Positions 1 through 63,345 of a DNA stretch of 63,345 nt are shown here, piece after piece. The DNA comes from Gemmatimonadaceae bacterium (GTDB lineage Bacteria; Gemmatimonadota; Gemmatimonadetes; Gemmatimonadales; Gemmatimonadaceae). The translations under genes and the position numbers were made by a program. The stretch spans positions 1 to 63,345 of the forward strand of contig JBKJQR010000279.1 in the NCBI GenBank assembly GCA_046593895.1, read 5' to 3'. The notes beneath the pieces are model-generated. The model ran no database searches and was not told the DNA's origin. It was given only the letters and a program-made list of their open reading frames with translations. How positions within the stretch are numbered: position 1 is the first letter of the stretch; the number at the start of each line of letters is the position of its first letter.

Positions 1-277
1 TTTCCATGCAATCGAAAAAAGCAGTTGAACCACCGAGAACTGCCGCGGCGAGAAAGCTCGGGACGCCGAACCTCAAACTGCAACGAGGCACGCCGAACAA
101 AATGATCCTGCACCAGGTCAAAGAATTGACCGCCCGCTCGCGACCGCGAGCCCTCGATCGCCACGGCCGTTCTCGGTGGTTCAAGCAGTTCGCGCCGCGC
201 CGAGACCGGGAAAGGTGCGGCGCGTGGTGCCTCGTCACATATTTCCCGGAGGCTTCGTCAACTCCCGGCACCCACGC

Positions 278-673
278 ATGACGGTTCCCCCGCAAAAACG
301 AGTTCTTGTCGTCGATGACGATCCGGCAATCTGTCGCGCTTACAGCGAAGTGCTGTCGGCCGCTGGTTACGATGTCGTCACCGCGGGCAGTCGGGCCGAT
401 GCGCTCACCGCGGTCGAACGGGTCTCCGGCGCGGTCGACGCGCTCATCCTCGACATCGGCCTGCCCGACGCGGACGGCTCCGAAGTCGCCCGCGATATCG
501 CGGCCCGCATTGGCCAGCGGCCGACGCTCTATGTCAGTGGCTGGTCCGAGGACTTCTGGCAGCTCTCCGAAGCGCCCGGTCGCTGGCGTGTGCGCCAGAA
601 ACCGATCCCGATCCCGTGGCTGCTCGACACGGTGCGCTGGCTCGCCGAAGGCGGGGAGCCACCTCCCGGCTGA
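278..673 (+). CDS. Stand-alone CheY-like response-regulator receiver protein
   Basis: ORF 176..673 trimmed to ATG 278 (MTVPPQKRVLVVDDDPAICRAY...). Receiver hallmarks VLVVDDD and ILDIGLPDADG. No output domain. Confidence 0.8.
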   Translation: MTVPPQKRVLVVDDDPAICRAYSEVLSAAGYDVVTAGSRADALTAVERVSGAVDALILDIGLPDADGSEVARDIAARIGQRPTLYVSGWSEDFWQLSEAPGRWRVRQKPIPIPWLLDTVRWLAEGGEPPPG

Positions 674-690
674 CGTTAGGCAGGCCTCGG

Positions 691-1701
691 CTATTCGACC
701 GGTGCCGCGCCGAGTCGTACCGAGATCGTCGGCCGGCCAGCCATCCGCCCGTTCTCGTCGAGGCGGACCAGCGAGATCCTGATCGTATCGCCCGGCTTCT
801 TCGACCGCAGCACGCGGAGCAATTCGCTCGCGGTGGCCGTTGCCGCGCCGTCGAGCGCGACGATGATGTCGCCGGGCTGCAATCCGGCGCGATCGGCCGG
901 CGTGGCTTGTCCGACCTGCCTGACGATCACGCCTTCGCGCACCGGTAGGCGGAAGCGCTCGACGATTTCCGGTGAAAGATCGGCGGTGTTGATGCCGAGA
1001 AATGGCCGGATGATGTGGCCCGTGGTCAGGACCTGGTTGGCGATGTCCTGCGCGAGGTTGATCGGGATCGCGAAGCCAAGGCCCGTCGTCCCCTGGAGGA
1101 TCGCGCTGTTGATCCCGATGACGCGACCTTGCGAGTCGAGGAGCGGTCCGCCGGAGTTCCCGGGATTGATCGCCGCATCGGTCTGGATCAACCCACCGAG
1201 TTCGAACCCGCGCGGGCTCCGGTTGATCGCCGAGATGATGCCGGTGGTGACCGTACGATCGAGGCCGATCGGATTGCCGATCGCGATCGCCGTCTGGCCG
1301 ACCTCGATCTGGTCGGAGTTGCCTAACGGCGCACTGGGCAGCCCCGTCAGCGCGACGCGGACGACCGCGATGTCGACCACCGGGTCGCGGCCGAGCACCT
1401 GCCCGACGAGCCGGCGTCCGTCGGCCAGGCCGATGTCGACGCGCGTCGCCGTCCCGACGACGTGGGCATTCGTGATGATGATCCCGTCGGACCGGATGAT
1501 CACCCCGGAGCCGAGTCCGACGCCGGGATCGGTGACGCTGACGACCGCCGGCGTCGCCTGCCTGGCAACCCGGATGATCATTGCCTCGTCGGCGAGTCGT
1601 GTCTGCGCCGGCAATGCAAGCGGCGCCGCGAGGAAGAGCGCGGTCGCAAATGTGGTCGGGCCGACGCGGCGGGTCGTCGAGGCGTTGAACATTCTGTTCA
1701 T
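691..1701 (-). CDS. htrA: HtrA/DegP-family (S1C) serine protease with C-terminal PDZ domain
   Basis: ORF 691..1704 (ATG at 1701). Signal-like N-terminus, catalytic-triad contexts TNAHVV, DIAVV and GNSGGPL, and a PDZ-like GLQPGDIIVALDG. Confidence 0.9.
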   Translation of the reverse strand: MNRMFNASTTRRVGPTTFATALFLAAPLALPAQTRLADEAMIIRVARQATPAVVSVTDPGVGLGSGVIIRSDGIIITNAHVVGTATRVDIGLADGRRLVGQVLGRDPVVDIAVVRVALTGLPSAPLGNSDQIEVGQTAIAIGNPIGLDRTVTTGIISAINRSPRGFELGGLIQTDAAINPGNSGGPLLDSQGRVIGINSAILQGTTGLGFAIPINLAQDIANQVLTTGHIIRPFLGINTADLSPEIVERFRLPVREGVIVRQVGQATPADRAGLQPGDIIVALDGAATATASELLRVLRSKKPGDTIRISLVRLDENGRMAGRPTISVRLGAAPVE

Positions 1702-1717
1702 CAAGTTGTGTGTGTTT

Positions 1718-2623
1718 CTACGCCGCGCCGCCGAGGGCGCAGTCGTGCGCGAGATGCCGCTGCTCGATCTGCATCGTCGCGTGCTCGATGCCGAAGCGGT
1801 CGTGCAGCTGCGTGCAGGCGGTGGCGATCAGCGAATCGGTGTTTCCGCCGGCGGGAACGACGAGGTGCGCGGTCAGCGCGACGTGCGTCGTGCTCAACCC
1901 CCAGATGTGCACGTCGTGCACGTCGGTGACGCCGGGCAGCGAGCCGAGATACGCGGTGACGGCCTCGGTGTCGATCCCCGGCGGCACCGCGTCGAGGGCG
2001 AGGTTCATCGAGTCGCGCAGCAGCCCCCAGCTGCCGGCGGTGATCAGCACGACGAGCACGAGGCTGACCACCGGGTCGATCCACGTCCATCCAGTGAACG
2101 CGATCGCCAACGCCGCGATGACGACGCCCGCCGATGCGGCGGCATCGCCGAGCATGTGGAGAAACGCGCCGCGGATGTTGAGGTCTTCATGGCGGCCGCG
2201 CATGAAAGCGAGCGCGGTGCCGATGTTGATGCAGATGCCGACGAGCGCGACGACAATCACCGTCGTCGTGGCGACCGGACCGGGATGACGCACGCGTCGC
2301 ACGGCCTCGACGGCGATCGCCCCGACCGCGATGAGCAGGAAGCCGGCATTGCCGAGCGCGGCGAGAATCGAGAAACGGCGCAGGCCGTAGGTGCGCCGCA
2401 TCGTCGGACGGCGAGCGGCGAGTACGGTCGCCGCCCACGCCAGCCCGAGCCCGAGCACATCGCCGAGGTTGTGCCCGGCGTCGGCGGTGAGCGCGAGCGA
2501 ATGCGCGCGCGCACCGAAGATCAGCTCCGCGATGACGAAGCTGAGGTTGAGCCCGATGCCGACCGTGAACGCGCGGTCGTACCGCGCCGGTCCATGATGA
2601 TGGTGATGATGCGTTCCAGTCAC
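1718..2623 (-). CDS. Cation diffusion facilitator (CDF) family metal efflux transporter
   Basis: GTG start. His-rich N-terminus MTGTHHHHHH, multiple TM helices, CDF-type HSLALTADAGHNLGDV and HMLGDAAAS motifs, and a C-terminal cytoplasmic domain. Confidence 0.9.
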   Translation of the reverse strand: MTGTHHHHHHGPARYDRAFTVGIGLNLSFVIAELIFGARAHSLALTADAGHNLGDVLGLGLAWAATVLAARRPTMRRTYGLRRFSILAALGNAGFLLIAVGAIAVEAVRRVRHPGPVATTTVIVVALVGICINIGTALAFMRGRHEDLNIRGAFLHMLGDAAASAGVVIAALAIAFTGWTWIDPVVSLVLVVLITAGSWGLLRDSMNLALDAVPPGIDTEAVTAYLGSLPGVTDVHDVHIWGLSTTHVALTAHLVVPAGGNTDSLIATACTQLHDRFGIEHATMQIEQRHLAHDCALGGAA

Positions 2624-2735
2624 ATCGAAGCGTACGATGTTGGCAGCGGCGGCGTCAACGCTGATTGATCACGCCGCGACGCACCGCCGCGGAATCACCG
2701 CTTGCCCCGGCGTGTCGCGCCAATGATCGTACAAC

Positions 2736-4649
<1,914 letters not shown>

Positions 4650-4672
4650 GCAGGAACGCCGGCGTCGGACAA

Positions 4673-4701
4673 TTGACAGAAGGTGTCATAACACGTATTA
4701 T
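4673..4701 (+). promoter_or_regulatory. Near-consensus sigma70-type promoter driving a leaderless MarR-family transcript
   Basis: TTGACA (4673-4678), a 17 nt spacer, then TATTAT (4696-4701). The ATG at 4707 starts 6 nt after the -10 hexamer and there is no room for a Shine-Dalgarno. A small GTGT-N4-ACAC dyad lies in the spacer. Confidence 0.6.
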
Positions 4702-4706
4702 CCGGA

Positions 4707-5192
4707 ATGTCCGCTGCCCATGCGTTGCACGAGGAGCTCAAGCAAGCGAAGCCCTTTCGCAGTCTCGAACAGGAGGCGCTGCTCAGCATCGAGCGAACGG
4801 CGGCGGTACTGACGCACGGCGTCGCCGATGCGCTCCGCCGCTACGAGATCACGCCGACGCAGTACAACGTCCTCCGCATCCTGCGCGGTGCCGGTGAGCA
4901 GGGGCTGTGTCGCAACGAGGTCCGCGACCGGCTGGTCGCGCAGGTTCCCGACGTTACCCGGCTGCTCGACCGGATGGAAGAAATGGGATTGGTCGAGCGT
5001 GAACGCGGCGAGGAAGACCGGCGAATGGTGTTGACGCGGCTGACTCGCAAGGGTGGGCAGCTGCTCGCCCGCACAGACGAGCCGGTGGCGCGGCTGCACC
5101 GGCAGCAGCTCGGCCATCTCAGCCCGGCGCGGCTGCGCACATTGATCGACCTGCTTGCCGACGCGCGGCAAGGAGCAGCAGAAAATGTGTGA
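4707..5192 (+). CDS. MarR-family transcriptional regulator
   Basis: Winged-HTH MarR pattern ITPTQYNVLRILRGAGEQGLCRNEVRDRLVAQVPDVTRLLDRMEEMGLVER. Confidence 0.9.
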   Translation: MSAAHALHEELKQAKPFRSLEQEALLSIERTAAVLTHGVADALRRYEITPTQYNVLRILRGAGEQGLCRNEVRDRLVAQVPDVTRLLDRMEEMGLVERERGEEDRRMVLTRLTRKGGQLLARTDEPVARLHRQQLGHLSPARLRTLIDLLADARQGAAENV

Positions 5193-5262
5193 AGCGGCGC
5201 TCCAGCAAATCGCCTCACTCCCGACGTGACACCGTCGCCTCCATTGCACCCTCAGGGTCACC

Positions 5263-5703
5263 ATGCATTCGCGCTACGCCAACTCGACTAACTTCTCGCG
5301 CCGTGTCGACACCGGGCTGCTGGTTCTTCGCGTCGCCATCGGAATCGTCTTCCTCGTCCACGGCGGGCAAAAGCTGTTCGTCTTCGGTTTCGGCGGAGTC
5401 TCCGGCGCCTTCGGCAACATGGGTGTTCCGCTGCCCGGCTTCACCGGGCCGCTGACGGCACTCGTCGAGTTCCTCGCCGGTGGGGCGCTGATCATCGGCC
5501 TGCTCACCCGGCTCGCAGCGTTAGGCCTGGCGATCGACATGCTCGGTGCGATCCTCATCGTCCACCTGAAGGGCGGCTTCTTTGCGCCGACGGGCTACGA
5601 ATATGCGCTGACGCTCCTCGCCGCCAACGTCGCCATCGCAATTGCCGGTGGCGGCTACTACTCGACCGACCGCGTGATGGCCGAGCGTCGCGCTGGCCGC
5701 TGA
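5263..5703 (+). CDS. DoxX-family integral membrane protein
   Basis: 146 aa with four predicted TM helices. DoxX-like N-terminus LLVLRVAIGIVFLVHGGQKLF. Confidence 0.85.
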   Translation: MHSRYANSTNFSRRVDTGLLVLRVAIGIVFLVHGGQKLFVFGFGGVSGAFGNMGVPLPGFTGPLTALVEFLAGGALIIGLLTRLAALGLAIDMLGAILIVHLKGGFFAPTGYEYALTLLAANVAIAIAGGGYYSTDRVMAERRAGR

Positions 5704-6587
5704 TGGAGGACGCGTACGGAATCGCACCGGCAGGCTACCGCCTGCCGGCGGCGACGCGACTCGGGCGCGTGCGGCTGCAGGTCGCCGACCTCGCCCGCTC
5801 GCTGGCGTATTACGAGCGGGTGCTCGGGTTGCGCGTCATCGAGCGCGGGCCAGCGACCGCCACCCTCGGTGCGATCGAGGGAGATGACGTGCTCGTCGAG
5901 CTGCGCGAGCTTGCCGGGGCGACAGCGGTGCCTCACCACGGGCGACTCGGGCTCTACCACGTTGCGATCCTCCTGCCCGGTCGTGCAGCGTTAGGCGCGC
6001 TCATCGCGCACCTCGGCGCGGCCGGCGTACGGGCCGGGATGTCCGATCACCTCGTCAGCGAAGCGATCTACCTGACCGATCCCGACGGACTCGGCATCGA
6101 GGTGTACGCCGACCGACCGCGTGCAGCGTGGCGCCACGAGGCGCGGCAGCTGCTGATGGCGACCGAGCCGCTCGATGTCGGCAGCGTCGTGGCCGCGGCG
6201 GGCGGCGCGCCCTGGCAGGGGATGCCAGCGGGCACGCGGATCGGCCACGTGCACCTGTTCGTGGGCGATCTCGCGGCGGGCGAAGAGTTTTACCACGCCG
6301 GCCTCGGCTTCGACAAGGTCGTCTGGAGCTACCCGGGCGCGCTCTTTCTTTCGGCAGGCGGCTACCACCACCACTTGGGTACGAACACCTGGGCGCGGAA
6401 CGCGGTGCCGGCAACGGGGCGTGACGCCCGGCTTCTCGATTGGGAGATTGTCCTGCCCGGCGCGAGCGATGTGGCCGCCGCTGCGACGAGCCTGGCGGGG
6501 CAGGGTGCCGCGATCGAGTGGGCGGGCGGTGATGCGGCCGTGCTCGATCCGTGGGGCACCACGGTTCGCTTGACCGAAGCGCGCTAG
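5703..6587 (+). CDS. VOC/glyoxalase-fold ring-cleaving dioxygenase (MhqO/CatE-like)
   Basis: Two tandem VOC repeats (GRVRLQVADLARSLAYYERVLGL and IGHVHLFVGDLAAGEEFYHAGLGF) plus GGYHHHLGTNTW. The start overlaps the DoxX stop (TGATG). Confidence 0.8.
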   Translation: MEDAYGIAPAGYRLPAATRLGRVRLQVADLARSLAYYERVLGLRVIERGPATATLGAIEGDDVLVELRELAGATAVPHHGRLGLYHVAILLPGRAALGALIAHLGAAGVRAGMSDHLVSEAIYLTDPDGLGIEVYADRPRAAWRHEARQLLMATEPLDVGSVVAAAGGAPWQGMPAGTRIGHVHLFVGDLAAGEEFYHAGLGFDKVVWSYPGALFLSAGGYHHHLGTNTWARNAVPATGRDARLLDWEIVLPGASDVAAAATSLAGQGAAIEWAGGDAAVLDPWGTTVRLTEAR

Positions 6588-6631
6588 CGTTAGGCGGGCC
6601 AGGCCGCGTCCCGGGAATCACGCTGGCCCGA

Positions 6632-7366: not shown

Positions 7367-7439
7367 ACCGTGCCTCTCATTTCCGGCATCGACATTTGGG
7401 TGTCCCCCGGAGCGCGGGCGGCAGGGGCGCGACGAAGAA

Positions 7440-41216: not shown

Positions 41217-41217
41217 G

Positions 41218-55878: not shown

Positions 55879-58326
55879 ATGCTCTCACCACTCCTCGCCC
55901 TCCTCGTCCTCGCGGCTCAACAGCCGGCCGCAGCGCCAGCGCGCGACAGCGTTCCCCCGGCGCGGGCAGACACGGCGAAGAAAGGTCGGAGCGTCAGCTT
56001 CAGCATCCGGGCCCACGGCGATACGGCAACCGTCGCCCAGGGAGACTCGGCGCGGCGCGCAGCGAAGCGGATTCGCGTCACCCCCGCGCATCTCGCGACG
56101 GCGTACGCGAACGATGCCACCCGCCAGCTCGTCCTCCGCGCTCGCGACGCGCGGCTCGCGGTGGATTCGACGCTGCGTTCGTACGAAGGGCTCACCTATC
56201 AGCGACTCTCGCTCGGCATCGCATTGCGGGCGCTCGCCCGCGAAAGGCTCGCCGCGCGCGGCGAACAATCAGCGCACATCGCCTGGGACCGCGACCGCGG
56301 TGCGCTCCTTCGCATCACCGGAGCGCGCGTGGTCGCGCCGATCGCCGGCGATGATGATGACGACGATCCCGCGTCGCCGGAGACGATCGAGCTGCCTTAC
56401 GCTCCGGGCGAGGACCGGCTCTGGCCGGTCGGGCGATTCAAGTTCGACGTCAACGACGAGGAGATCATCCACCCGTTAGGCGCCGGCGCCGAGGCGTACT
56501 ACAGCTACGCGATGGGCGACTCGGTGGTCATCCGGATCGCCCGCGGAACCGAGTATCACCTCGTCGAGCTGCGGGTGCGCCCGCGCAGCGAACGATGGAA
56601 CGCCGTCATCGGATCGCTCTGGCTCGACCGCGAGAGCGCGCAGATCGTCCGCGCCGCCTACCGGCTCTCGGCACCGCTCGACGTCTGGCTGGCGGTCAGC
56701 GCCGAGGCCGCGGCCGACACGATGCCTGACGGCAAGCGCCGCAAGAAGCACGATGACGACGAGATTCCCTTCTGGCTCAAGCCGGCGCTGCAGCCGATGC
56801 GGCTGTCGCTCACCGCGGTCACCCAGGAGTTTGCGCTGCAGGGCGGCCGCTGGTGGCTGCCGACCTCGCGCACTGCTGAGGGCCTGTTCGAGATGGGGCC
56901 GATTCACAGCCCGATCACCTGGGAGGAGCGGTTCACCTACGACGCCGTCCGCGGCACGGCCATGCCTAACGCGACGCTGGATTCGCTCGACGTCCGCTAC
57001 CGCGACCGACTGGCCATGCTCGATTCGGTCGCCGTGCTCCGGAAGACGCTCGGCGATTCCGCGGCGCGTCACTACCGGAAAGGGCTCGACTCCCTCGAGC
57101 ACGGTGAGCGCGACCAGTGCCGGAAGACGATGCACGGATCGCGGCTCCAGGTCATTCGCCGCGATGGAGTGCGCAGCTTCGTCGTCGTGCCCTGCGACAC
57201 CGCGCTCCTCGTCCACTCCGCTGACCTCCCCCCGTCGATCTACGCGTCGAGCGACGAAGTCTTCGGCACTACCGACCGTGACGAGCTGCGGGCGTGGGCA
57301 ATGTCGGTGCAGGCAATGAGTGACGAGGGCCGGCTCGCACCGCCGAAGGTCCTCTTCGGCATCGGGGGCGGGTTGCTGCGCTACAACCGCGTGGAGGGAC
57401 TCTCGCTCGGTGCGCGGGTCGAGCAGCGGCTGCACCGTGGCTACAGCGCGCACGCGCTCGCCCGTCTCGGCTTCGCCGACCTCAATCCCGGCGTCGAGAT
57501 CGGCGTCGCTCGCGCCGATGCCCAGCGGGTGTACGACGTGACTGGCTACCACCGACTGGCCGTCGCCGGCGACTACAGCGAGCCGTTCAGCATCGGCGCA
57601 TCGTTAGGCGCACTGCTCTGGGGTCGCGACGACGGCTTCTACTACCGCGCCTCCGGCGTCGAGTTGACCCGCGCTGCGATTGCCGGTGAGCGCGTGCGCT
57701 GGCGGGTGTTCGCCGAGCACGAGGGCGACGCGACGGCGAAAACCAACATTTCACTGGCGCACCTCGGCAACGGACAGTTTGCGCCGAACATCGTCGCCGA
57801 GCGCGGGAACGTCGGCGGTGTTGGCGCATCCCTGGCGCGCACGTTCGGGGAGGATCCGCGCGGCTGGCGGCTGCTCAGCGATTCGCGCCTCGAGGCGGCC
57901 GCCGGAAGCTTCGACTACACGCGCGCGCTGTTCGACCTGACCGTATCGCACCCGCTCGCGTTAGGCACGACCGGCTCGCTGACTGCGGTCGCCGGCGCGG
58001 CCGGCGGGCGTCCGCCGGTGCAGAAGCTGTTCTTCGTCGGCGGTCCGCAGACGGTGCGCGGGATCGATCCGGGGAGCGCGATCGGCGATGCGTTCTGGGT
58101 CGGCCGCGGGGAGCTGGGCTTCGGCCGGCGGCTGGCCCGGCCAGTGGTGTTCGGTGATCTCGGGTGGGCGGGCAGCCGCGATGACTGGCGCCACCCCGGC
58201 CGCCCGCTCGCCGGCGTCGGCGTCGGCGGGTCCTTCCTCGATGGCCTGGTCCGGGCCGACATCGCGAAGGGGATCAGGCCGTCCGGCGGGGTGCGCGTCT
58301 ACCTCTACGTGGACGCTCGTTTCTGA
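55879..58326 (+). CDS. Large outer-membrane protein with an Omp85/surface-antigen-like C-terminal beta-barrel (hypothetical)
   Basis: Short signal peptide. The C-terminal roughly 300 aa have alternating beta-strand pattern, FFVGGPQTVRGI, and a terminal aromatic residue (YLYVDARF-stop). Confidence 0.6.
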   Translation: MLSPLLALLVLAAQQPAAAPARDSVPPARADTAKKGRSVSFSIRAHGDTATVAQGDSARRAAKRIRVTPAHLATAYANDATRQLVLRARDARLAVDSTLRSYEGLTYQRLSLGIALRALARERLAARGEQSAHIAWDRDRGALLRITGARVVAPIAGDDDDDDPASPETIELPYAPGEDRLWPVGRFKFDVNDEEIIHPLGAGAEAYYSYAMGDSVVIRIARGTEYHLVELRVRPRSERWNAVIGSLWLDRESAQIVRAAYRLSAPLDVWLAVSAEAAADTMPDGKRRKKHDDDEIPFWLKPALQPMRLSLTAVTQEFALQGGRWWLPTSRTAEGLFEMGPIHSPITWEERFTYDAVRGTAMPNATLDSLDVRYRDRLAMLDSVAVLRKTLGDSAARHYRKGLDSLEHGERDQCRKTMHGSRLQVIRRDGVRSFVVVPCDTALLVHSADLPPSIYASSDEVFGTTDRDELRAWAMSVQAMSDEGRLAPPKVLFGIGGGLLRYNRVEGLSLGARVEQRLHRGYSAHALARLGFADLNPGVEIGVARADAQRVYDVTGYHRLAVAGDYSEPFSIGASLGALLWGRDDGFYYRASGVELTRAAIAGERVRWRVFAEHEGDATAKTNISLAHLGNGQFAPNIVAERGNVGGVGASLARTFGEDPRGWRLLSDSRLEAAAGSFDYTRALFDLTVSHPLALGTTGSLTAVAGAAGGRPPVQKLFFVGGPQTVRGIDPGSAIGDAFWVGRGELGFGRRLARPVVFGDLGWAGSRDDWRHPGRPLAGVGVGGSFLDGLVRADIAKGIRPSGGVRVYLYVDARF

Positions 58327-58434
58327 CTTGGCCGGGCGGAAATCGGTTGCGCGAACAGCTCTGAGGAACGAAAGTTGTCGCGAGCCGATTGATACGTGAC
58401 CTCCGTCGCGACCCCCGCCCGCCCCATCCCTGCC

Positions 58435-59349
58435 ATGAAAGCCAACTCGATTCTCGACACCATCGGCAACACGCCACACGTCAGGCTGAGCCGGCTTTTT
58501 CCAAAGAACGAAGTGTGGATGAAGCTCGAGCGCGCGAATCCCGGCGGAAGCATCAAGGACCGCATCGGCTTCGCGATGATCGAAGACGCCGAGCGCCGCG
58601 GAGTCCTCAAGCCGGGGATGACGATCATCGAACCGACGTCGGGCAACACCGGCATCGGGCTGGCGATGACCGCGGTGGTCAAGGGATACAAGCTGATCCT
58701 GGTGATGCCCGAGTCGATGTCCGTCGAGCGACGACGGATTCTCGCGGCGTACGGCGCGCGCGTCGAGCTGACGCCGCGCGAAGGCGGAATCAAGGCATCG
58801 ATCGCCCGCGCCGAAGAGCTGATTGCCAGCACGCCGGGGTCGTGGATGCCACAGCAGTTCGAGAATCCGGCCAACATCGCGATCCACAGATCGACGACGG
58901 CCGAGGAGATCCTGCGCGATTTCCCCGAGGGACTCGACTACCTGATCACCGGAGTCGGCACCGGCGGGCACATCACGGGCGTCGGCGAGGTGCTCAAGAA
59001 AGCGATGCCGAAGCTCAAGGTACTCGCCGTCGAGCCGGCGAAATCGGCGGTGCTCAACGGCGGCCAGCACAGCCCACACAAGCTCCAGGGGATCGGAACC
59101 GGCATGATCCCGGCGAACCTCGACCGCGCGGTGCTCGACGGGGCGGTGGACGTGAGCGAGGAAGATGCGTTCGCCTGGGCGGTCCGCGCGGCGAAGGAAG
59201 AGGCAATCTTCATCGGTCCATCATCGGGGGCATCGCTGGCGGCGGTCGCGCAGACGCTGCCTAACGTTCCAGCGGACAGCCGGATCCTCACCTTCTGCTA
59301 CGACACCGGCGAGCGCTATCTCTCGGTTGACGGCCTGTTCGTCGCCTGA
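58435..59349 (+). CDS. cysK: Cysteine synthase A (O-acetylserine sulfhydrylase)
   Basis: Trimmed to ATG 58435. [12 protein letters not shown]-lysine context [21 protein letters not shown] and [10 protein letters not shown]. Confidence 0.9.
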
Positions 59350-59463
59350 TCGTCCCGTTCACTCGAGTATCTTGCACTACCGGCCCGAATTCGTCGGGCG
59401 GATCTGGGCGTGCGCGGAATGGCAACCGCCGCGGCGCCGTCACTCTACCGGAGAGGTTCCAGC

Positions 59464-60516
59464 ATGAAGCCGATCGCGATCTACCACGAGCACCCCGACT
59501 GGTTCCGCCCGCTCTTCGCTGAGCTCGACCGTCGCCAGCTCCCCTACGTACGCCTTGACGCATCCGCGCACGCGTACGACCCCGCCGAGAGCGAAGTCCC
59601 CTGGTCCGTTGTCGTGAACCGCGCTTCGCCGTCGGCGTACCTCCGCGGCCACGCGCAGTCCACTTTCCATACGCTCAACTTCCTGCGCCACCTCGAGCGG
59701 CTCGGCGTGCCCGTCATCAACGGGTCGAAGCCGTACGAGACCGAGATCTCCAAGGCGCTGCAGCTCGACATCCTCACCTCGCTCGGCCTGCCATTCCCGA
59801 AGAGCTTCGTCGTCAACTCGGCCGAACGCGTCGCCGAGGCGGCGTCGAAGCTTCGCTATCCGGTGCTGGTGAAGGCGAACATCGGTGGCAGCGGCGCCGG
59901 CATCGTGAAGTATGACGACAAGGCCGCGCTGCGCGACGCACTGGCCGCAGGCCGCCTGACGTTAGGCATCGACGGGGTGGCGCTCGTCCAGGAGGCGGCT
60001 CCGCTCCGCGATGGGCACATCACCCGCGTCGAGCTCCTCGGCGGAAAGTTTCTCTACGCGATCGACGTCTTCCCGGCCGCGGGCTCGTTCGACCTCTGCC
60101 CGGCTGACATCTGCCAGACGACGCGCGGCGAATCGCTCGCTCGCGCCGCCTGCGCGATCGATGCTCCGAAGAACGGGATGACTGTCGAGGGCGCAACGCC
60201 GCCGGCCGCGATCATCGCCGGCGCCGAGCGCATCGCGCAGGCGATCGGTCTCGACATCGGCGGGATCGAGTACCTCGTCGACGATCGCGACGGCAAGCAC
60301 TACTTCTACGACGTGAATGCGTTGTCGAACTTCGTCGCCGACGCGCCGCGCGTGATCGGCTTCGACCCCTGGCAGCCGTTCGTCGACTTCATCGAAGCGC
60401 GGGCCGGTGCACGTCCAACGCCGCGGCGAAGCAGCGCGAGTGGCATGTCCCGCGTCTCGCACGAGCCGGCGTCGAGCGGTGCGTACGCCGCGGCGCGCGC
60501 CCGCGGGGAGGAGTGA
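59464..60516 (+). CDS. ATP-grasp (RimK-like) ligase family protein
   Basis: Trimmed to ATG 59464. ATP-grasp core YPVLVKANIGGSGAGIV...ALVQE...GGIEYLVDDRDGKHYFYDVNALSNF. Confidence 0.8.
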   Translation: MKPIAIYHEHPDWFRPLFAELDRRQLPYVRLDASAHAYDPAESEVPWSVVVNRASPSAYLRGHAQSTFHTLNFLRHLERLGVPVINGSKPYETEISKALQLDILTSLGLPFPKSFVVNSAERVAEAASKLRYPVLVKANIGGSGAGIVKYDDKAALRDALAAGRLTLGIDGVALVQEAAPLRDGHITRVELLGGKFLYAIDVFPAAGSFDLCPADICQTTRGESLARAACAIDAPKNGMTVEGATPPAAIIAGAERIAQAIGLDIGGIEYLVDDRDGKHYFYDVNALSNFVADAPRVIGFDPWQPFVDFIEARAGARPTPRRSSASGMSRVSHEPASSGAYAAARARGEE

Positions 60517-61571
60517 CCGTGAGCGACAAGCTTCGCTACGGCTACTGGCTCCCCGTGTTCGGGGGCTGGCTGCGCAACGTGCCCGACGAAGGGATGGATG
60601 CGTCGTGGGAGTACGTGAAGCGGCTCGCCCAGCGCAGCGAGCAGCTGGGCTACGATCTCACGCTCATCGCCGAGCTCTTTCTCAACGACATCAAGGGAAT
60701 CGACGCGCCCTCGCTTGACGCCTGGAGCACAGCGGCCGCACTGGCCGCGGTGACCGAGACGCTCGAGCTGATGGTCGCGGTCCGTCCGACCTTTCACAAC
60801 CCCGCGATCCTCGCGAAGCAGGCGGCGAACATCGACCGCATCGCGAACGGGCGACTGTCGCTCAACGTCGTCTCGAGCTGGTGGAAGGACGAGGCGCGCC
60901 GTTATGGCGTCCGCTTCGACGAGCACGACGACCGCTATGCGCGCACCGCCGAGTGGCTGACGGTGCTCGATGGCGCCTGGACGCAGCGCGAGTTCTCGCA
61001 CCGTGGCGAGTACTACGAGGTGAACGAGACGATTCTCGAGCCGAAGCCGCTGCGCCGTCCACGGCCGACGATCTACGCCGGCGGGGAGAGCGAGACCGCA
61101 AAGAATCTGATCGCGACGCGCTGCGATGCGTATGTGATGCACGGCGATCCGCCGGAGCGGATCGCCGCCAAGATCTCCGACATGCGCCGCCGCCGTGAGG
61201 CGGCCGGGCTGCCGGAGATGGAATACGGTGTCGCCGCGTACACGATCGTCCGTGACAGCGAGCGTGAGGCAAAGCGCGAACTCGAGCGGATCACCAACGT
61301 GACGCCCGGCTCGCCGGGCTATGGAAACTATCAGGACTGGATCGCCAACACGCAGCTCGAGTCGCGTGTCACGCTCGAAGATTACTCGGTGTCCAACCGC
61401 GGCCTGCGTGCGGGGCTCGTCGGCACCCCGGAGCAGGTGGCCGAGCAGGTGCAGGCGTTCGAGGATGCCGGCGTCGGGCTGCTGTTGCTGCAATGCAGCC
61501 CGCAGATCGAGGAGATGGAGCGATTCTCGGAAGCGGTGATCCGTCCGCTGGCGTCGGTCGGGGCTGCCTGA
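60513..61571 (+). CDS. Luciferase-like (LLM class) flavin-dependent monooxygenase, SfnG-like
   Basis: GTGA overlap with the ATP-grasp stop. N-terminal YGYWLPVFGGWLRNV and RLSLNVVSSWW resemble the SfnG/dimethylsulfone monooxygenase subgroup. Confidence 0.8.
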   Translation: MTVSDKLRYGYWLPVFGGWLRNVPDEGMDASWEYVKRLAQRSEQLGYDLTLIAELFLNDIKGIDAPSLDAWSTAAALAAVTETLELMVAVRPTFHNPAILAKQAANIDRIANGRLSLNVVSSWWKDEARRYGVRFDEHDDRYARTAEWLTVLDGAWTQREFSHRGEYYEVNETILEPKPLRRPRPTIYAGGESETAKNLIATRCDAYVMHGDPPERIAAKISDMRRRREAAGLPEMEYGVAAYTIVRDSEREAKRELERITNVTPGSPGYGNYQDWIANTQLESRVTLEDYSVSNRGLRAGLVGTPEQVAEQVQAFEDAGVGLLLLQCSPQIEEMERFSEAVIRPLASVGAA

Positions 61572-61590
61572 CGCTCGCTTCCGGTGATCG

Positions 61591-62052
61591 ATGCCTGACA
61601 GTTATCGCCTAACGCTGGAGACTGCGCCGGAGCCCGCCGAGGAGCAGGTGGTCCTCGACGGGCTCCGCGCCTTCAACGTCGCGGTGATCGGTCCGCCGAA
61701 CATCCGGCCGGTAGCGGTGTTCGTCCGCGACGATGCTGGCGATGTCAGCGGCGGGTTGCTCGGCGAGATCAAGTGGCGCTGGCTGTACGTGGACAAGCTC
61801 TGGCTGCCGAAAACGCTGCGCGGGTCGGGCATGGGCACGAAGCTGATGCGCATCGTCGAGCAGCACGCCTGGGCCGAGGACTGTCTTGGTGTGCACCTGA
61901 GCACCTTCGAGTATCAGGCGCTGCCATTCTATCAGAAGCTGGGATACGAGCTGTTCGGGACGTTCGACGGATTTCCGCCGGGGTACAAGCAGTTCTACCT
62001 GAAGAAGGAGCGGCCGGCGGGCGCCGAATTAAACACAAAGGCTACTAAATAA
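61591..62052 (+). CDS. GNAT-family N-acetyltransferase
   Basis: Acetyl-CoA binding motif LRGSGMGTKLMRIVEQHA. 153 aa. Confidence 0.85.
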   Translation: MPDSYRLTLETAPEPAEEQVVLDGLRAFNVAVIGPPNIRPVAVFVRDDAGDVSGGLLGEIKWRWLYVDKLWLPKTLRGSGMGTKLMRIVEQHAWAEDCLGVHLSTFEYQALPFYQKLGYELFGTFDGFPPGYKQFYLKKERPAGAELNTKATK

Positions 62053-62342
62053 CCACGGAGCACTGCCGTGGCGCACTTGAGCTCGCGGTCGCTGGCGGGC
62101 AAAAGCATTATTGGGCGTACGGCGAGATGGATTCGCCCCGCTTGCCCCCAGGCAGTTCGAGATCCGCCACCCCGACCCCATCCCTCGCGGCATTTCTCTG
62201 TGGTTCAATGTCGTTGCGGTCGGGCAGATCTTTTGACAAGCTCTCCCTCCGGCCACGCGCTATCAGCTGATCGCCGCCGTTCTCGCCCACGGAACGATCC
62301 TCGCACTCCTCACACTCCTCGACGACCCCCAAGGGGAATTCC

Positions 62343-63345
62343 TTGAAAAGAGCAGTTCAGCACGGAGCCTCGACACGGCGACGGATCGGTCTCGCGGTGC
62401 GGTTACTCATCGCGATCTCGGTCTGTGGAGCCGCCGCCTGCGTTCGCACGCGAACGAAGATCATCGAACCGCTGACCACCACCGCGACGGAATCGATGCC
62501 GGTCGTCACGGAGCCGGAGAGTGCGCGCCGTGAGGCTGAGGGACCGACCGCGCTCCGGATGCATGGGGTGGATCTCCGCGTCGCGCCCGGTGTCGTGCTG
62601 CACGTCAGGCAGCTCGAGGGCGAGATCGCGAGCCTGACTCCGGGCCAGCCGGTGATCCTCGAGGACAAGCGATCGTACGTCATCCGGATCGGAACCGCCG
62701 ATGCCGGGCTGACGACGGAGGACCTGAGTCGCGTACTCAACCGCAACGTGTTCGCGTACGAGAAGACCCCGCTCAGTGACATCAAGTTGACCGCGACGGG
62801 TAGCAAGCTTCGACTGCGCGCGACGCTGCACAAGGGAGGCGACGTCCCCGTCGAGATCATCGGCGACGTATCCGCGACGGCGGAGGGTGAGGTGCGGGTG
62901 CGCCCGACGTCAATCAAGGTCGCAAGAATTCCAGCTGGCCCGGTTCTCCGGCTCGTCGGGCTCAAGCTGGACAAGCTGGTCAGCCTGCGCGGTGCGCGGG
63001 GGGCACGGCTCAAGGGAAACGACATCTTTCTGCAGCCGGACAGCATCCTGCCGCCGCCGCGCATTCATGGGCATGTCACGCACGTCCGGGTCGAGGGCGA
63101 CGAGCTGCGCCTGACGTTTGCCGAGCCGTCAGGCAAACCGATCGCGCCGATCGCCGCTGCCGCGGACGCCCCGCCCGACACGTCAGGCAACTATCTCTAC
63201 TTCAGGAAAGGGACGCTTCGGATCGGAAAACTGTTCATGGTCCACGCCGATCTCGAGATCATGGACGCGAACCCGGCTGACCCGTTCGACTTCAGCGCCG
63301 ATGATTTTCCGAAGCAGCTCGTCGCCGGCTACGTGAAGAACACGG
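62343..63345 (+). CDS. Lipoprotein of unknown function, 3-prime partial (runs off the window)
   Basis: Not in the supplied ORF track because it has no stop. My translation from TTG 62343 gives LKRAVQHGASTRRRIGLAVRLLIAISVCGAAAC... and stays open for 334 codons with gene-like codon usage. The antisense ORF 62357..63064 is a shadow ORF. Confidence 0.6.
   Translation, partial: MKRAVQHGASTRRRIGLAVRLLIAISVCGAAACVRTRTKIIEPLTTTATESMPVVTEPESARREAEGPTALRMHGVDLRVAPGVVLHVRQLEGEIASLTPGQPVILEDKRSYVIRIGTADAGLTTEDLSRVLNRNVFAYEKTPLSDIKLTATGSKLRLRATLHKGGDVPVEIIGDVSATAEGEVRVRPTSIKVARIPAGPVLRLVGLKLDKLVSLRGARGARLKGNDIFLQPDSILPPPRIHGHVTHVRVEGDELRLTFAEPSGKPIAPIAAAADAPPDTSGNYLYFRKGTLRIGKLFMVHADLEIMDANPADPFDFSADDFPKQLVAGYVKNT

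What the first reader, a model, noticed from the sequence alone, without database searches (positions are those of the whole stretch)
1..63345. Hyper-abundant non-palindromic octamer CGTYAGGC / GCCTRACG (about 95 copies, about 1 per 0.67 kb) written into genes with rare codons
COUNTS: Reading both strands by eye, I count 54 exact copies of CGTTAGGC/GCCTAACG, 29 as CGTTAGGC and 25 as GCCTAACG on the + strand. Their starts are 674, 1321, 3047, 4644, 5519, 5989, 6588, 7207, 9528, 10580, 11993, 12779, 14820, 15815, 17339, 18573, 19598, 20013, 20148, 20176, 20634, 22326, 22643, 23460, 25776, 27900, 28654, 29055, 29499, 30991, 32773, 34243, 35020, 35398, 37730, 38628, 39222, 40877, 41246, 42029, 42170, 43753, 49444, 49984, 52427, 53056, 54272, 56474, 56964, 57602, 57959, 59259, 59960 and 61607. 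I also count 41 exact copies of the one-base variant CGTCAGGC/GCCTGACG, for example at 918, 3538, 4309, 8728, 12694, 13172, 13526, 16608, 18154, 21804, 22919, 22977, 24092, 30416, 32447, 33500, 33813, 41459, 56724, 58479, 61566, 62613, 63108, 63127 and 63181. EXPECTATION: From base composition alone, assuming about 68% G+C, my rough expectation is 2-3 and about 5 copies respectively, so enrichment is about 20-fold and 8-fold. The other fourth-position variants (CGTGAGGC, CGTAAGGC) occur only a handful of times. DISTRIBUTION: Orientation is balanced (46 versus 49), and copies occur in almost every gene regardless of function or strand. CODON CONTEXT: In coding sequence the word sits in two preferred frames. 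One is NCG-TTA-GGC or NCG-TCA-GGC (Leu-Gly or Ser-Gly). The other is G-CCT-AAC-G or G-CCT-GAC-G (Pro-Asn or Pro-Asp). These frames force TTA, TCA and CCT codons that this GC-rich genome otherwise avoids. Most TTA codons I could find lie in the word, in its 7-nt core GTTAGGC (31825, 33437), or in a one-mismatch relative (CGTTAGGG at 34588, 37346 and 40741; CGTTAGGA at 37280; CGTTACGC at 9339). One clear exception is CGG-TTA-CTC at about 62400. This argues for selection on the DNA word rather than on the protein. INTERPRETATION: The density, the orientation balance, tolerance inside genes and use in hairpins all resemble DNA uptake sequences (Neisseria DUS, Pasteurellaceae USS). An alternative is a half-site for an abundant DNA-binding protein. 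I do not recognise this word as a described element.
Basis: seen in the sequence. Interest (0 to 1): 0.85.

Follow-up and report, generated by a model that had tools for sequence, protein, structure and literature searches.

The report
Hyper-abundant genome word in Gemmatimonadaceae
A soil-bacterium family (Gemmatimonadaceae) has written the 8-base word CGTTAGGC into its genes about once per kilobase, much as a few other bacteria carry DNA-uptake tags. The word is unreported in the literature searched and is identical to the classical integron recombination core site.

Summary
CGTTAGGC/GCCTAACG occurs 54 times and CGTCAGGC/GCCTGACG 41 times in 63 kb. Dinucleotide shuffles give 1.0 and 5.8; synonymous-codon shuffles give 1.3 and 5.1.

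The window comes from a Gemmatimonadaceae bacterium. The same word is the top 8-mer in 14 related genomes. It is also the top 8-mer on a 1.1-Mb replicon of the cultured Gemmatirosa kalamazoonensis (778 copies against about 4 expected). It is absent from other Gemmatimonadota and from outgroups.

Words show no strand or replichore skew and sit in two preferred reading frames. They are made by multi-step synonymous rewriting (CTC-GGC to TTA-GGC). They are about twice as conserved as background 8-mers, yet they turn over. The published methylome shows no 6mA motif matching the word (5mC untested).

This anatomy best fits a DNA-uptake-sequence-like signal kept up by molecular drive (confidence about 0.4). 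Uptake itself is untested.

One link is unexplained. The word equals the canonical integron core site C-GTTAGGC (GTTRRRY), and it forms both ends of about 42 attC sites in Gemmatirosa's own integron. However, the genome-wide specificity differs from what the attC boxes tolerate.

The parts
1..63345 (.). Field of 54 exact CGTTAGGC/GCCTAACG words (T variant), one per 1.17 kb.
   Evidence: Plus-strand starts: 674, 4644, 5519, 5989, 6588, 9528, 10580, 14820, 15815, 17339, 18573, 19598, 22643, 27900, 28654, 30991, 32773, 34243, 35020, 35398, 39222, 41246, 42029, 42170, 49444, 56474, 57602, 57959, 59960. Minus-strand starts: 1321, 3047, 7207, 11993, 12779, 20013, 20148, 20176, 20634, 22326, 23460, 25776, 29055, 29499, 37730, 38628, 40877, 43753, 49984, 52427, 53056, 54272, 56964, 59259, 61607. 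Expectations: 1.0 (dinucleotide shuffles), 1.3 (synonymous shuffles), 0.22 (word-masked Markov).
918..63188 (.). Field of 41 exact CGTCAGGC/GCCTGACG words (C variant).
   Evidence: Plus-strand starts: 4309, 16608, 18154, 24092, 28635, 29049, 33500, 33813, 47254, 49483, 50586, 50983, 52861, 58479, 62603, 63127, 63181. Minus-strand starts: 918, 3538, 8728, 9534, 12694, 13172, 13526, 20134, 20162, 21804, 22919, 22977, 30416, 32438, 41459, 42990, 44724, 45591, 46048, 51701, 56724, 59954, 61566, 63109. Expected 5.8 (dinucleotide shuffles) or 3.85 (masked Markov). The variant interchanges with the T variant at orthologous sites. Its enrichment depends on lineage: about 10x here, 2-3x in distant relatives and in Gemmatirosa.
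20131..20184 (-). 28-nt tandem duplication giving four direct words at 14-nt spacing (C, T, C, T variants). It lies in the 38-bp spacer between convergent genes.
   Evidence: The first word supplies the TGA stop of gene 18445-20139(+). The last word supplies the TAG stop of gene 20178-21656(-).
9528..9541 (.). Overlapping palindromic dimer CGTTAGGCCTGACG.
29049..29062 (.). Overlapping palindromic dimer CGTCAGGCCTAACG. It is conserved in L003 and L020.
59954..59967 (.). Overlapping dimer in the opposite arrangement, GCCTGACGTTAGGC.
63109..63134 (.). Inverted pair GCCTGACG-N10-CGTCAGGC (8-bp stem). This is the only clear hairpin-type pair in the window.
   Evidence: No T-run follows it.
4644..4651 (+). 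Word whose TAG is the stop codon of the histidine-kinase gene 2736-4649.
   Evidence: Six genes in all take their stop codon from a word: word starts 4644, 5989, 20134, 20176, 23460 and 61566.
35020..35027 (+). Recently written word inside the conserved AcrB-family gene (xCG-TTA-GGC).
   Evidence: Only the window, L001 and L002 have CGTTAGGC here; most other orthologues with aligned sequence here, word-bearing or not, have CGCTCGGC (Leu CTC-Gly) and the rest carry close variants (e.g. CGCTCGGG, CCCTCGGC), none with the word. The gain needed two synonymous substitutions.
33500..33507 (+). Word written through three synonymous changes (GTG-CGN to GTC/GTT-AGG) in AcrB. It is the C variant here and the T variant in the L008-L019 clade.
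42448..51581 (.). Strain-specific 9.1-kb island (Type I hsdM, DUF3800, Mrr, hsdS, hsdR; GC 63%). It is poorer in the T variant but still word-bearing.
   Evidence: The island is absent from L001, L002 and L021. It holds 3 T words (expected 0.12) and 8 C words (expected 0.76). T density is 0.33/kb against 0.97/kb in the rest of the window.

Best explanation
CGTTAGGC, with a lineage-specific tolerated variant CGTCAGGC, is a genome-wide 'signature word' of a clade of Gemmatimonadaceae. It is maintained by a directional force that acts on the double-stranded DNA word itself, not on proteins, transcripts or replication strands.

Most likely mechanism: it works like the DNA uptake sequences of Neisseriaceae (DUS) and Pasteurellaceae (USS).
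1. A surface DNA receptor of the transformation machinery binds DNA carrying the word preferentially.
2. Fragments from relatives that carry the word are therefore imported and recombined more often than alleles that lack it.
3. This molecular drive steadily converts tolerant positions into words until protein constraints balance it. Such positions include Leu-Gly codon pairs, Pro-Asn pairs, Val-Arg pairs and gene ends.

SHOWN: the hyper-abundance, the sharp specificity, the orientation neutrality, the writing by synonymous multi-step substitutions, conservation above background with turnover, the clade distribution including a cultured strain, and the absence of a matching 6mA motif in the published methylome.

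For: 1. ENRICHMENT CANNOT COME FROM COMPOSITION, CODONS OR PEPTIDES. The window has 54 T words against 1.0 (dinucleotide shuffles), 1.3 (synonymous shuffles) or 0.22 (masked Markov). It has 41 C words against 5.8, 5.1 or 3.85.

2. REPLICON-SCALE CONFIRMATION IN A CULTURED TYPE STRAIN. Gemmatirosa kalamazoonensis plasmid 1 (1,106,233 bp) holds 778 copies, 404 on + and 374 on -, or 0.70/kb. About 4.2 are expected, and it is the top 8-mer.

3. NO STRAND BIAS. Orientation is balanced in 13 loci. The two replichores of the Gemmatirosa replicon give 250:251 and 154:123. Sense to antisense in the window is 39:40.

4. CLADE DISTRIBUTION WITH DIALECT-LIKE VARIATION. The word is the top 8-mer in 14 Gemmatimonadaceae loci with GC 62-71%. 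It is at chance in 143 kb of other Gemmatimonadota and 237 kb of Oxalobacteraceae. The C variant is about 10x enriched in the window lineage, 6.8x in close relatives and 2-3x elsewhere. Gemmatirosa instead tolerates T at position 1 (TGTTAGGC, 77 against 1.8).

5. WRITTEN INTO CONSERVED GENES BY SYNONYMOUS AND SOMETIMES NON-SYNONYMOUS CHANGES. Examples are CGCTCGGC to CGTTAGGC and GTG-CGN to GTY-AGG. Words are identical in orthologues about twice as often as background 8-mers: 53% against 24% at 80% identity, and 23% against 10% at 72% identity. In word-free relatives the figure is 0 of 43. Positions nevertheless turn over. Density, not position, is what is maintained.

6. OTHER DUS/USS-LIKE TRAITS (comparison from my own knowledge of DUS/USS).
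- The same two preferred reading frames occur in the window and in Gemmatirosa.
- There is a mild excess at gene ends and non-coding DNA: 14 of 95 words against 9% non-coding.
- Spacing is slightly more even than random: CV 0.80 against 0.98 (P=0.014) in the window, and 0.88 against 1.00+-0.036 on the Gemmatirosa replicon.

7. METHYLATION. The Gemmatirosa SMRT methylome reports only the 6mA motifs RGATCY, ATGCAC and CCAGN7TCA (PMC3974934). A 6mA-based reader is therefore unlikely.

8. PILIN. A canonical type IV pilin gene is present on the Gemmatirosa replicon.

9. HIP1 PRECEDENT. HIP1, the other hyper-abundant octamer, is now reported to enhance transformation and is proposed as an uptake signal (bioRxiv 10.64898/2026.06.24.733823).
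Against: - No uptake or transformation data exist for any Gemmatimonadota; literature searches found none.
- Competence genes (comEA, comEC, dprA, pilQ, minor pilins) could not be surveyed, because no whole chromosome was accessible.
- Inverted pairs acting as terminators, common for the Neisseria DUS, are rare here.
- The strain-specific restriction-modification island still carries words at 10-25x expectation. This needs a word-bearing donor or long residence.
- The word equals the canonical integron core site, including the preceding C. A pure uptake-sequence model does not predict this.
- In the 63-kb window, one-mismatch variants are barely enriched. A graded uptake bias would predict more, although at replicon scale they are enriched (1014 against 548).
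Confidence: 0.4

Rival explanations
1. Integron-related site. The words are double-stranded recognition or recombination sites (attI- or attG-like core sites) for the integron integrase or for a domesticated relative. Alternatively, the reader of the word evolved from, or for, recognition of integron cassette ends. A hybrid version holds that the uptake machinery recognises the universal cassette core site and the genome-wide copies are a by-product of that bias.
For: - CGTTAGGC contains GTTAGGC, an instance of the attC/attI core site GTTRRRY. Its complement contains the inverse core RYYYAAC (PMC3053210).
- In G. kalamazoonensis plasmid 1, about 42 attC sites of a sedentary integron begin with GCCTAACG and end with CGTTAGGC. 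A bona fide integron integrase lies beside them (TIGR02249, 423 bits).
- In metagenomic IntI loci without solitary words, CGTTAGGC is still 23% of attC boxes. It is therefore a general cassette-end sequence.
- A random 8-mer would match GTTRRRY only about 0.4% of the time.
- Natural transformation feeds cassette capture in Vibrio (PMC12614218).
Against: - Only GTTAGGC is enriched among the 16 GTTRRRY words. The other 15 together give 48 against 37 in the window and 558 against 385 in Gemmatirosa.
- The organism's own attC boxes freely use GTTAGAC, GTTGGGC and GTTAGGT.
- The window's C variant (GTC instead of GTT) is enriched about 10x, although it breaks the triplet that is invariant in the GTTRRRY consensus.
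- Words arise by point substitution inside conserved genes, not by insertion.
- The window has no attC or intI.
- Genome insertion sites of IntI need only GWT (bioRxiv 10.1101/2022.09.11.507474).
- Thousands of good insertion sites inside genes should be harmful.
Confidence: 0.12
2. Binding site of an abundant sequence-specific DNA-binding protein, such as a nucleoid-organising or genome-maintenance factor. Selection keeps a minimum density of sites along the chromosome.
For: - Specificity is a sharp 8 bp.
- Orientation is neutral.
- Spacing is more even than random, and the largest gap in the window is 2.3 kb.
- Overlapping palindromic dimers occur about 15x more often than chance would give (my rough estimate).
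- Density is maintained while positions turn over.
Against: - To my knowledge, no nucleoid protein requires an exact non-palindromic 8-mer at about 1/kb inside genes.
- Site-by-site selection on thousands of individually dispensable sites is weak compared with a drive.
- Lineage-specific variants and complete absence in sister lineages with similar biology (L007, L017) fit an arbitrary recognition code better than a core chromosome function.
Confidence: 0.12
3. HIP1-like element. The word is tied to a DNA modification (for example 5mC at its CpG) and to a repair or recombination bias that converts near-matches into matches.
For: - The phenomenology matches HIP1: a hyper-abundant octamer that is conserved beyond codon expectation, with quasi-regular spacing (PMC5861425 and PMC4390886).
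- The T/C alternation at position 4 is a transition.
- The word starts with CpG.
Against: - The word is not palindromic.
- The SMRT methylome of word-rich G. kalamazoonensis lists three 6mA motifs, and none overlaps the word.
- The only methyltransferase in the window is a strain-specific Type I HsdM. Type I recognition sites are bipartite (my knowledge).
- Known repair biases (Vsr type) give about 2-fold effects, not 50-250-fold (my knowledge).
Confidence: 0.1
4. Chi-like or KOPS-like polar motif that guides RecBCD/AddAB or FtsK.
For: It is the most over-represented 8-mer of the genome, as Chi often is (PMC4390886).
Against: - There is no strand skew in 13 loci or on either replichore of a complete 1.1-Mb replicon (250:251 and 154:123).
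- Enrichment of 50-250x far exceeds that of known Chi sites (my knowledge).
Confidence: 0.03
5. By-product of codon usage, dipeptide content or base composition, or an assembly artefact.
For: None beyond the partial explanation of the C variant in the NGC-CTG-ACG frame, which uses common codons.
Against: - Dinucleotide, codon-order and synonymous shuffles never exceed 5 T words or 13 C words.
- Word-free relatives encode the same Leu-Gly as CTC-GGC.
- The word appears in many independent metagenome-assembled genomes and in a finished PacBio genome.
Confidence: 0.01

Closest known systems
DNA uptake sequences: DUS of Neisseriaceae (GCCGTCTGAA core) and USS of Pasteurellaceae (AAGTGCGGT core)
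   Same: - A short non-palindromic word at about 1 per kb.
- Both orientations are equally frequent.
- Mostly inside genes, in a few reading frames that encode tolerable peptides.
- A family-level distribution with lineage 'dialects'.
- Conservation above background, with turnover.
- Rarer in some foreign DNA.
   Different: - The phylum is different (Gemmatimonadota, soil).
- The word is 8 bp with almost no flanking information (+1 R, 0.35 bit).
- Few inverted-pair terminators.
- Uptake bias, receptor and competence are all untested.
- The word coincides with the integron core site.
HIP1 (GCGATCGC) of cyanobacteria
   Same: A hyper-abundant octamer (15-300x) written into genes, conserved beyond codon expectation and quasi-regularly spaced. 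Its function was long unknown and is now proposed to be transformation-related (PMC5861425; bioRxiv 10.64898/2026.06.24.733823).
   Different: HIP1 is a palindrome that embeds the sites of two orphan methyltransferases and is methylated. The word here is asymmetric and matches none of the three 6mA motifs reported for Gemmatirosa (PMC3974934).
Integron core site / attC R box (GTTRRRY; inverse core RYYYAAC)
   Same: The sequence is identical (C-GTTAGGC). In Gemmatirosa's own integron the word forms the 8-bp outer stem of about 42 attC hairpins.
   Different: - The window's words are solitary. They have no partner box, no folded palindrome and no integrase nearby.
- They are created by point substitution inside conserved genes.
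- Only one of the 16 GTTRRRY words is enriched.
- A GTC variant is also enriched.
Chi (RecBCD/AddAB) and KOPS (FtsK) motifs
   Same: Over-represented 7-8-mers spread along the chromosome.
   Different: Those motifs are strand-polar with respect to replication and only a few-fold enriched. This word shows no skew and far higher enrichment.

Membership tests
DNA uptake sequences (DUS/USS) | Short specific word present hundreds to thousands of times per genome (about 1 per kb), far above any compositional expectation. | tested here: met
   The window has 54 T and 41 C words in 63 kb, against 1.0 and 5.8 expected. Gemmatirosa plasmid 1 has 778 in 1.1 Mb against about 4 expected.
DNA uptake sequences (DUS/USS) | Non-palindromic, with both orientations equally frequent and no replication-strand polarity. 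| tested here: met
   Window 46:49. Thirteen loci are balanced. The two replichores give 250:251 and 154:123.
DNA uptake sequences (DUS/USS) | Tolerated inside genes in preferred reading frames, with coevolution with the proteome. | tested here: met
   The frames NCG-TTA-GGC and NNG-CCT-AAC-G dominate in the window and in Gemmatirosa. Rewriting is synonymous and occasionally non-synonymous.
DNA uptake sequences (DUS/USS) | Shared by a family-level clade with dialects, and absent from outgroups. | tested here: met
   The C-variant and position-1 variants differ by lineage.
DNA uptake sequences (DUS/USS) | Frequent inverted pairs forming transcription terminators (Neisseria). | tested here: not met
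   The window has only one hairpin-type pair and three overlapping dimers. Such pairs are rare in Gemmatirosa outside attC sites.
DNA uptake sequences (DUS/USS) | Depletion in recently acquired DNA. | tested here: inconclusive
   The restriction-modification island has 0.33 T words per kb against 0.97 elsewhere, but it is still 10-25x enriched. The largest word-free gaps in Gemmatirosa are mostly low-GC. Integron cassette bodies hold 0.45/kb against 0.67/kb on the rest of the replicon.
DNA uptake sequences (DUS/USS) | Competent cells preferentially bind or take up DNA carrying the word. | not testable with these tools
   This needs uptake or transformation assays. No literature exists on competence in Gemmatimonadota.
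DNA uptake sequences (DUS/USS) | Type IV pilus and Com machinery with a sequence-specific receptor (ComP-like minor pilin). | not tested
   Only one type IV pilin gene was found (Gemmatirosa plasmid 1, 631,067-631,567). No whole chromosome was accessible.
HIP1-type iterated palindromes | Palindromic octamer. | tested here: not met
   CGTTAGGC is not its own reverse complement.
HIP1-type iterated palindromes | Word embeds the sites of resident methyltransferases and is methylated. | tested here: inconclusive
   The published SMRT methylome of word-rich G. kalamazoonensis reports only the 6mA motifs RGATCY, ATGCAC and CCAGN7TCA. 5mC is not excluded.
Chi / KOPS polar motifs | Strong orientation bias relative to the direction of replication. 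| tested here: not met
Integron recombination sites (attC / attI core) | Core sequence GTTRRRY. | tested here: inconclusive
   The T variant matches exactly (GTTAGGC). The C variant (GTCAGGC, 41 copies) does not. The other 15 GTTRRRY words are not enriched.
Integron recombination sites (attC / attI core) | Paired with an inverse core across a 57-141-nt imperfect palindrome with extrahelical bases (attC), or adjacent to intI (attI). | tested here: not met
   The window has no such pairs and no intI. The feature is met only in the Gemmatirosa integron at 810-857 kb.

The most novel reading that the evidence does not exclude
The word is a transformation or recombination signal derived from the integron cassette end. 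Under this reading, a DNA reader in these bacteria (an uptake receptor or a recombinase-derived binder) recognises the near-universal attC core C-GTTAGGC. This originally favoured the capture of gene cassettes from environmental DNA. Molecular drive then spread the same 8-mer through the whole genome. It would be the first uptake-type signal outside Proteobacteria (apart from HIP1 of cyanobacteria, recently proposed as one), and a direct mechanistic bridge between natural transformation and integrons.
Probability: 0.12. Interest if true: 0.92.

Novelty: new member of a known kind. Interest (0 to 1): 0.78.

Why it matters
- Sequence-specific DNA uptake is established only in Neisseriaceae and Pasteurellaceae. 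HIP1 of cyanobacteria is the only other well-known hyper-abundant octamer.
- A third case would change how gene flow and species cohesion are viewed in uncultivated soil bacteria. Gemmatimonadota is an abundant but poorly cultured soil phylum, and this word is conserved across genera.
- The case is directly testable. The type strain Gemmatirosa kalamazoonensis KBS708 carries the word at 0.7/kb on its 1.1-Mb replicon.
- The word is also a practical taxonomic and binning marker for this clade, and a probe for foreign DNA within its genomes.
- Its identity with the integron core site raises a new question: are cassette ends and genome-wide signature words read by related machinery?

Tried and rejected
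1. A SECOND 'DIALECT'. GTTGTAGA/CGTTGTAG looked mildly enriched in the word-free Gemmatimonadota loci L032 and L035. All copies lie on one strand and read as Tyr-Asn codons. This is a codon effect, not a signal.

2. VIRAL CONTIGS. I scanned for the 14-mer dimer CGTTAGGCCTGACG and got 42 hits. None was word-dense, so nothing could be learned about phages of this clade.

3. SOURCE CONTIG. Exact-protein look-ups for the window's own contig failed three times.

4. LONGER OR BIPARTITE MOTIF. Nothing was found within +-40 nt except R at +1 (0.35 bit) and 'not T' at -2 (0.19 bit).

5. RNA EXPLANATION. The window has no tRNA and no Rfam hits.

6. PILIN MOTIF SEARCH. Nothing was found in the window or in the 35 loci. 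There was one hit on the Gemmatirosa megaplasmid, but its neighbours are not pilus genes.

7. UNAVAILABLE RECORDS. The Gemmatirosa chromosome and its 21-kb phage-like element are not in the accessible collections.

8. 'WORD-IZATION' OF attC BOXES. I considered that attC boxes in Gemmatirosa had simply been converted to the word by the genome-wide drive. This cannot be the whole story, because IntI-linked attC candidates from word-free metagenomic contigs also use CGTTAGGC in 23% of boxes.

9. attG SITES. IntI genome insertion sites need only GWT, so they do not explain an exact 8-mer.

Full report
CHECKING THE OBSERVATION

The window is 63,345 bp with 67.4% G+C. It contains exactly 54 copies of CGTTAGGC/GCCTAACG (29 on +, 25 on -). 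It contains 41 copies of CGTCAGGC/GCCTGACG (17 on +, 24 on -). The G and A variants at position 4 occur 6 and 3 times. Every start coordinate listed for the T variant is correct. Four example coordinates for other words are off by 1-10 nt.

Expected counts are far below what is observed:
- Dinucleotide-preserving shuffles give 1.01+-1.03 (max 4) and 5.77+-2.26 (max 13).
- A 2nd-order Markov model gives 0.8 for the T variant.
- A 3rd-order model trained with the words masked gives 0.22 and 3.85.
- In 50 kb of called coding sequence, shuffling synonymous codons within each gene gives 1.3+-1.1 against 45 observed, and 5.1+-2.0 against 34 observed. This shuffle keeps the protein and the gene's own codon usage, including the TTA and CCT codons that the word itself contributes.

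The word is sharply bounded. Of 63 TTAGG pentamers, 54 lie in the octamer. All other one-mismatch octamers together are near expectation (30 against 22.3). Flanks carry almost no information within +-40 nt: R at +1 (0.35 bit) and 'not T' at -2.

The codon claims are right. 24 of 33 TTA codons and 24 of 51 CCT codons sit in the word.

Frame use of the T variant:

| Orientation and frame | Copies |
|---|---|
| NCG-TTA-GGC | 24 |
| NNG-CCT-AAC-G | 14 |
| NNC-GTT-AGG-C | 3 |
| NGC-CTA-ACG | 4 |
| Frames that would read TAG or TAA | 0 |

. Six genes actually use a word as their stop codon. Hairpin use is marginal.

WHERE IT COMES FROM AND WHO ELSE HAS IT

An AcrB-family protein of the window (32274-35594) is 96% identical to one in a Gemmatimonadaceae metagenome-assembled genome. 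That search returned 35 loci. CGTTAGGC is the single most over-represented 8-mer in 14 Gemmatimonadaceae loci with GC from 62% to 71%.

Pooled counts, observed/expected:

| Group | T variant | C variant |
|---|---|---|
| Close relatives (L001-5, L020) | 65 / 0.35 | 31 / 4.5 |
| Intermediate group (L021, L031, L006) | 17 / 0.07 | 10 / 2.8 |
| Distant word-bearing clade, including a Gemmatimonas sp. genome (L008-12, L016, L019) | 79 / 0.65 | 18 / 7.9 |
| Other Gemmatimonadota, 143 kb | 1 / 0.4 | 5 / 8.3 |
| Oxalobacteraceae, 237 kb | 2 / 1.6 | 8 / 18 |

I then found a cultured representative. The 1,106,233-bp 'plasmid 1' of the type strain Gemmatirosa kalamazoonensis KBS708 (NZ_CP007129) was fetched whole.
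- CGTTAGGC is again the top 8-mer: 778 copies (404 on +, 374 on -), or 0.70/kb, against about 4.2 expected.
- The first 50 kb of plasmid 2 has 20 copies.
- In Gemmatirosa the C variant is only weakly enriched (132 against 51). A position-1 variant is strongly enriched instead (TGTTAGGC, 77 against 1.8).

The permitted variants therefore differ between lineages, in the way DUS dialects do.

ANATOMY AND EVOLUTIONARY BEHAVIOUR

Orientation is balanced in all loci with enough copies. On the complete Gemmatirosa replicon I defined the two arms by cumulative GC skew. They hold 250:251 and 154:123 copies. In the window, words lie on the sense and antisense strands of genes 39:40. This excludes Chi- or KOPS-type functions, transcription signals and translation signals.

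Spacing is slightly more even than random. In the window CV is 0.80 against 0.98 (P=0.014) and the largest gap is 2.3 kb. On the replicon CV is 0.88 against 1.00+-0.036.

Orthologous comparison is the most telling result.

| Comparison | Words identical in orthologue | Background 8-mers identical |
|---|---|---|
| 93% nucleotide identity | 87% | 63% |
| About 80% identity | 53% | 24% |
| About 72% identity, word-bearing genomes | 23% | 10% |
| Word-free relatives | 0 of 43 | 12% |

New words appear elsewhere in each lineage, so density is kept while positions turn over.

In the conserved AcrB gene, word-free genomes read xCG-CTC-GGC or GTG-CGN-C where the window reads xCG-TTA-GGC or GTC-AGG-C. 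Words are built by two or three synonymous substitutions toward rare codons. Occasionally the change is non-synonymous (Ser to Gly at 32773, Ile to Leu at 34243). T and C variants swap at orthologous sites (22977, 29055, 30416, 33500, 37730).

A strain-specific 9.1-kb restriction-modification island (42448-51581) is absent from three relatives. It has a three-fold lower T-word density but is still 10-25x enriched. This suggests a word-bearing donor.

WHAT IT MOST LIKELY IS

Elhai's review names three classes of hyper-frequent oligomers: Chi sites, uptake sequences and HIP1 (PMC4390886).
- Chi-type polarity is absent.
- HIP1 is a methylated palindrome. This word is asymmetric, and the SMRT methylome of word-rich G. 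kalamazoonensis shows only the 6mA motifs RGATCY, ATGCAC and CCAGN7TCA (PMC3974934). 5mC remains possible.
- The remaining class, DNA uptake sequences, matches on every in-silico criterion except terminator pairing (see the membership table).

I therefore commit to an uptake-sequence-like signal maintained by molecular drive: biased uptake of word-bearing DNA from relatives, followed by homologous recombination. My confidence is about 0.4.

The steps from 'directional DNA-level force' to 'uptake receptor' are inference. No competence data exist for this phylum. I could find only a lone type IV pilin gene on the Gemmatirosa replicon. Recent work proposing that HIP1 itself enhances transformation (bioRxiv 10.64898/2026.06.24.733823) raises the prior that such words are linked to gene exchange.

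AN UNEXPECTED LINK: THE INTEGRON CORE SITE

On the Gemmatirosa replicon, 810-857 kb holds about 42 same-strand copies of a roughly 97-nt imperfect palindrome. It reads GCCTAACG...CAGCTGCGGAGCCGC...GCGGCTCCG-T-CAGCTGCAACGATTCGTTAGGC. The copies are separated by single small ORFs.
- One copy, tested as single-stranded DNA, folds as an attC site. The two words form the 8-bp outer stem. Inside lie an unpaired spacer, an inner stem with extrahelical bases and a variable tip (z = -4.1).
- Adjacent to it is an integron integrase (TIGR02249, 423 bits against a cut-off of 265).
- This large integron is already known (IntegronFinder 2.0, PMC9024848).

The point for this finding is that GTTAGGC and GCCTAAC are instances of the attC core and inverse-core consensus GTTRRRY and RYYYAAC (PMC3053210). 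I recall GTTAGGC as the historical class 1 consensus; that is my own knowledge.

Metagenomic loci with IntI homologues (54-65% identity) gave a control. In 69 loci (299 kb) with no solitary word, attC candidates still use GTTAGGC in 32% of boxes and CGTTAGGC in 23%. The 8-mer is therefore a general cassette-end sequence, not something Gemmatirosa's drive imposed. A random 8-mer would match GTTRRRY about 0.4% of the time, so a real connection is plausible.

Yet the genome-wide reader is not behaving like IntI:
- Only GTTAGGC of the 16 GTTRRRY words is enriched. It scores 58 against 0.4 in the window and 801 against 1.5 in Gemmatirosa outside the integron. The other 15 together score 48 against 37 and 558 against 385.
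- Gemmatirosa's own attC boxes freely use GTTAGAC, GTTGGGC and GTTAGGT.
- The window lineage also enriches GTCAGGC, which lacks the GTT triplet that is invariant in the consensus.
- Known genome insertion sites of IntI need only GWT.

Cassette bodies carry solitary words at 0.45/kb against 0.67/kb elsewhere on the replicon.

I keep 'integron-related reader' as a rival (0.12). As the most novel reading, I propose a hybrid: an uptake or recombination reader tuned to cassette ends, with genome-wide spread as the by-product. Natural transformation is known to feed cassette capture in Vibrio (PMC12614218).

NOVELTY AND VERDICT

Full-text searches found no paper linking Gemmatimonadota to uptake sequences or to this word.

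The phenomenon belongs to a known kind: hyper-abundant, orientation-neutral signature oligomers such as DUS, USS and HIP1. It is a new member of that kind. It lies in a new phylum, has a cultured host available for experiments, and shows an unexplained identity to the integron core site.

Interest is high (0.78), because the function is experimentally testable and bears on gene flow in a dominant but little-known soil phylum.

Noticed in passing
window 42448-51581: Strain-specific defence island with GC 63%. It carries Type I hsdM (42496-44001), a DUF3800 protein (44157-45038), Mrr (46373-47263), hsdS (47282-48652) and hsdR (48649-51669). At this locus relatives have 70 bp (L002), about 1.3 kb (L021) or about 1.6 kb (L001) of other sequence.
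   Followed up: partly
window 20131-20184: A 28-nt tandem duplication fills the spacer between convergent genes (AMP-binding enzyme 18445-20139 and ABC1 kinase 20178-21656). It supplies both stop codons from words.
   Followed up: partly
window 23462-24493 (-): ATP-dependent DNA ligase gene (DNA_ligase_A_M plus DNA_ligase_A_C). Its TAG stop lies inside a word. It sits next to a metallophosphoesterase gene (24965-26188).
   Followed up: no
window 7919-16632: Chemotaxis-type cluster: CheR-TPR, MCP, CheA-CheW-receiver fusion, CheB and a receiver-GAF histidine kinase. It is densely seeded with words like every other gene.
   Followed up: no
window, whole: CGTTCGGC (xCG-TTC-GGC, Phe-Gly) is depleted: 2 observed against 9.5 expected in the word-masked model. 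This is the only notable deficit among the one-mismatch neighbours. It is not depleted in Gemmatirosa (341 against 275).
   Followed up: no
L094-L095 (NZ_CP007129 810,000-857,800; outlying copies near 879 and 882 kb): Sedentary integron of G. kalamazoonensis: about 42 homogeneous attC sites, cassette ORFs all on the minus strand, and intI at 856,827-857,786 on the same strand as the cassettes. It was already reported by IntegronFinder 2.0 as one of the largest integrons on a 'plasmid'.
   Followed up: yes
NZ_CP007129 (L078-L100), about 40 loci: Repeated intergenic element with three tandem GGACTGAAG units. These are preceded by CTCCACGTACG-N-GTTTCT and followed by GACCAACAACAC plus an inverted repeat. 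That gives 120 copies of GGACTGAA against 6.5 expected. It could be a regulatory or small-RNA element. It is absent from the window.
   Followed up: no
L090:31067-31567 (+) (NZ_CP007129 631,067-631,567): Stand-alone type IV pilin gene (N_methyl motif, N-terminus KGFTLIELLIVVVIIGILAAIAIP). Its neighbours are histidine kinases, a TonB-dependent receptor and a radical-SAM protein, not pilus assembly genes.
   Followed up: partly
L008 about 2860-2970, 13315-13430, 15025-15170: Three intergenic copies of an element made of tandem AGTTATC units and their inverted complement (CTGATAAC), about 100 nt across. One lies just downstream of the AcrB homologue.
   Followed up: no
NZ_CP007129 12,143-18,188 and 65,203-71,248: Two identical word-free 6,045-bp gaps with GC 64.7%. 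They reflect the 53-kb tandem repeat described in the genome paper. Each is probably a foreign or mobile segment inside one repeat copy.
   Followed up: no
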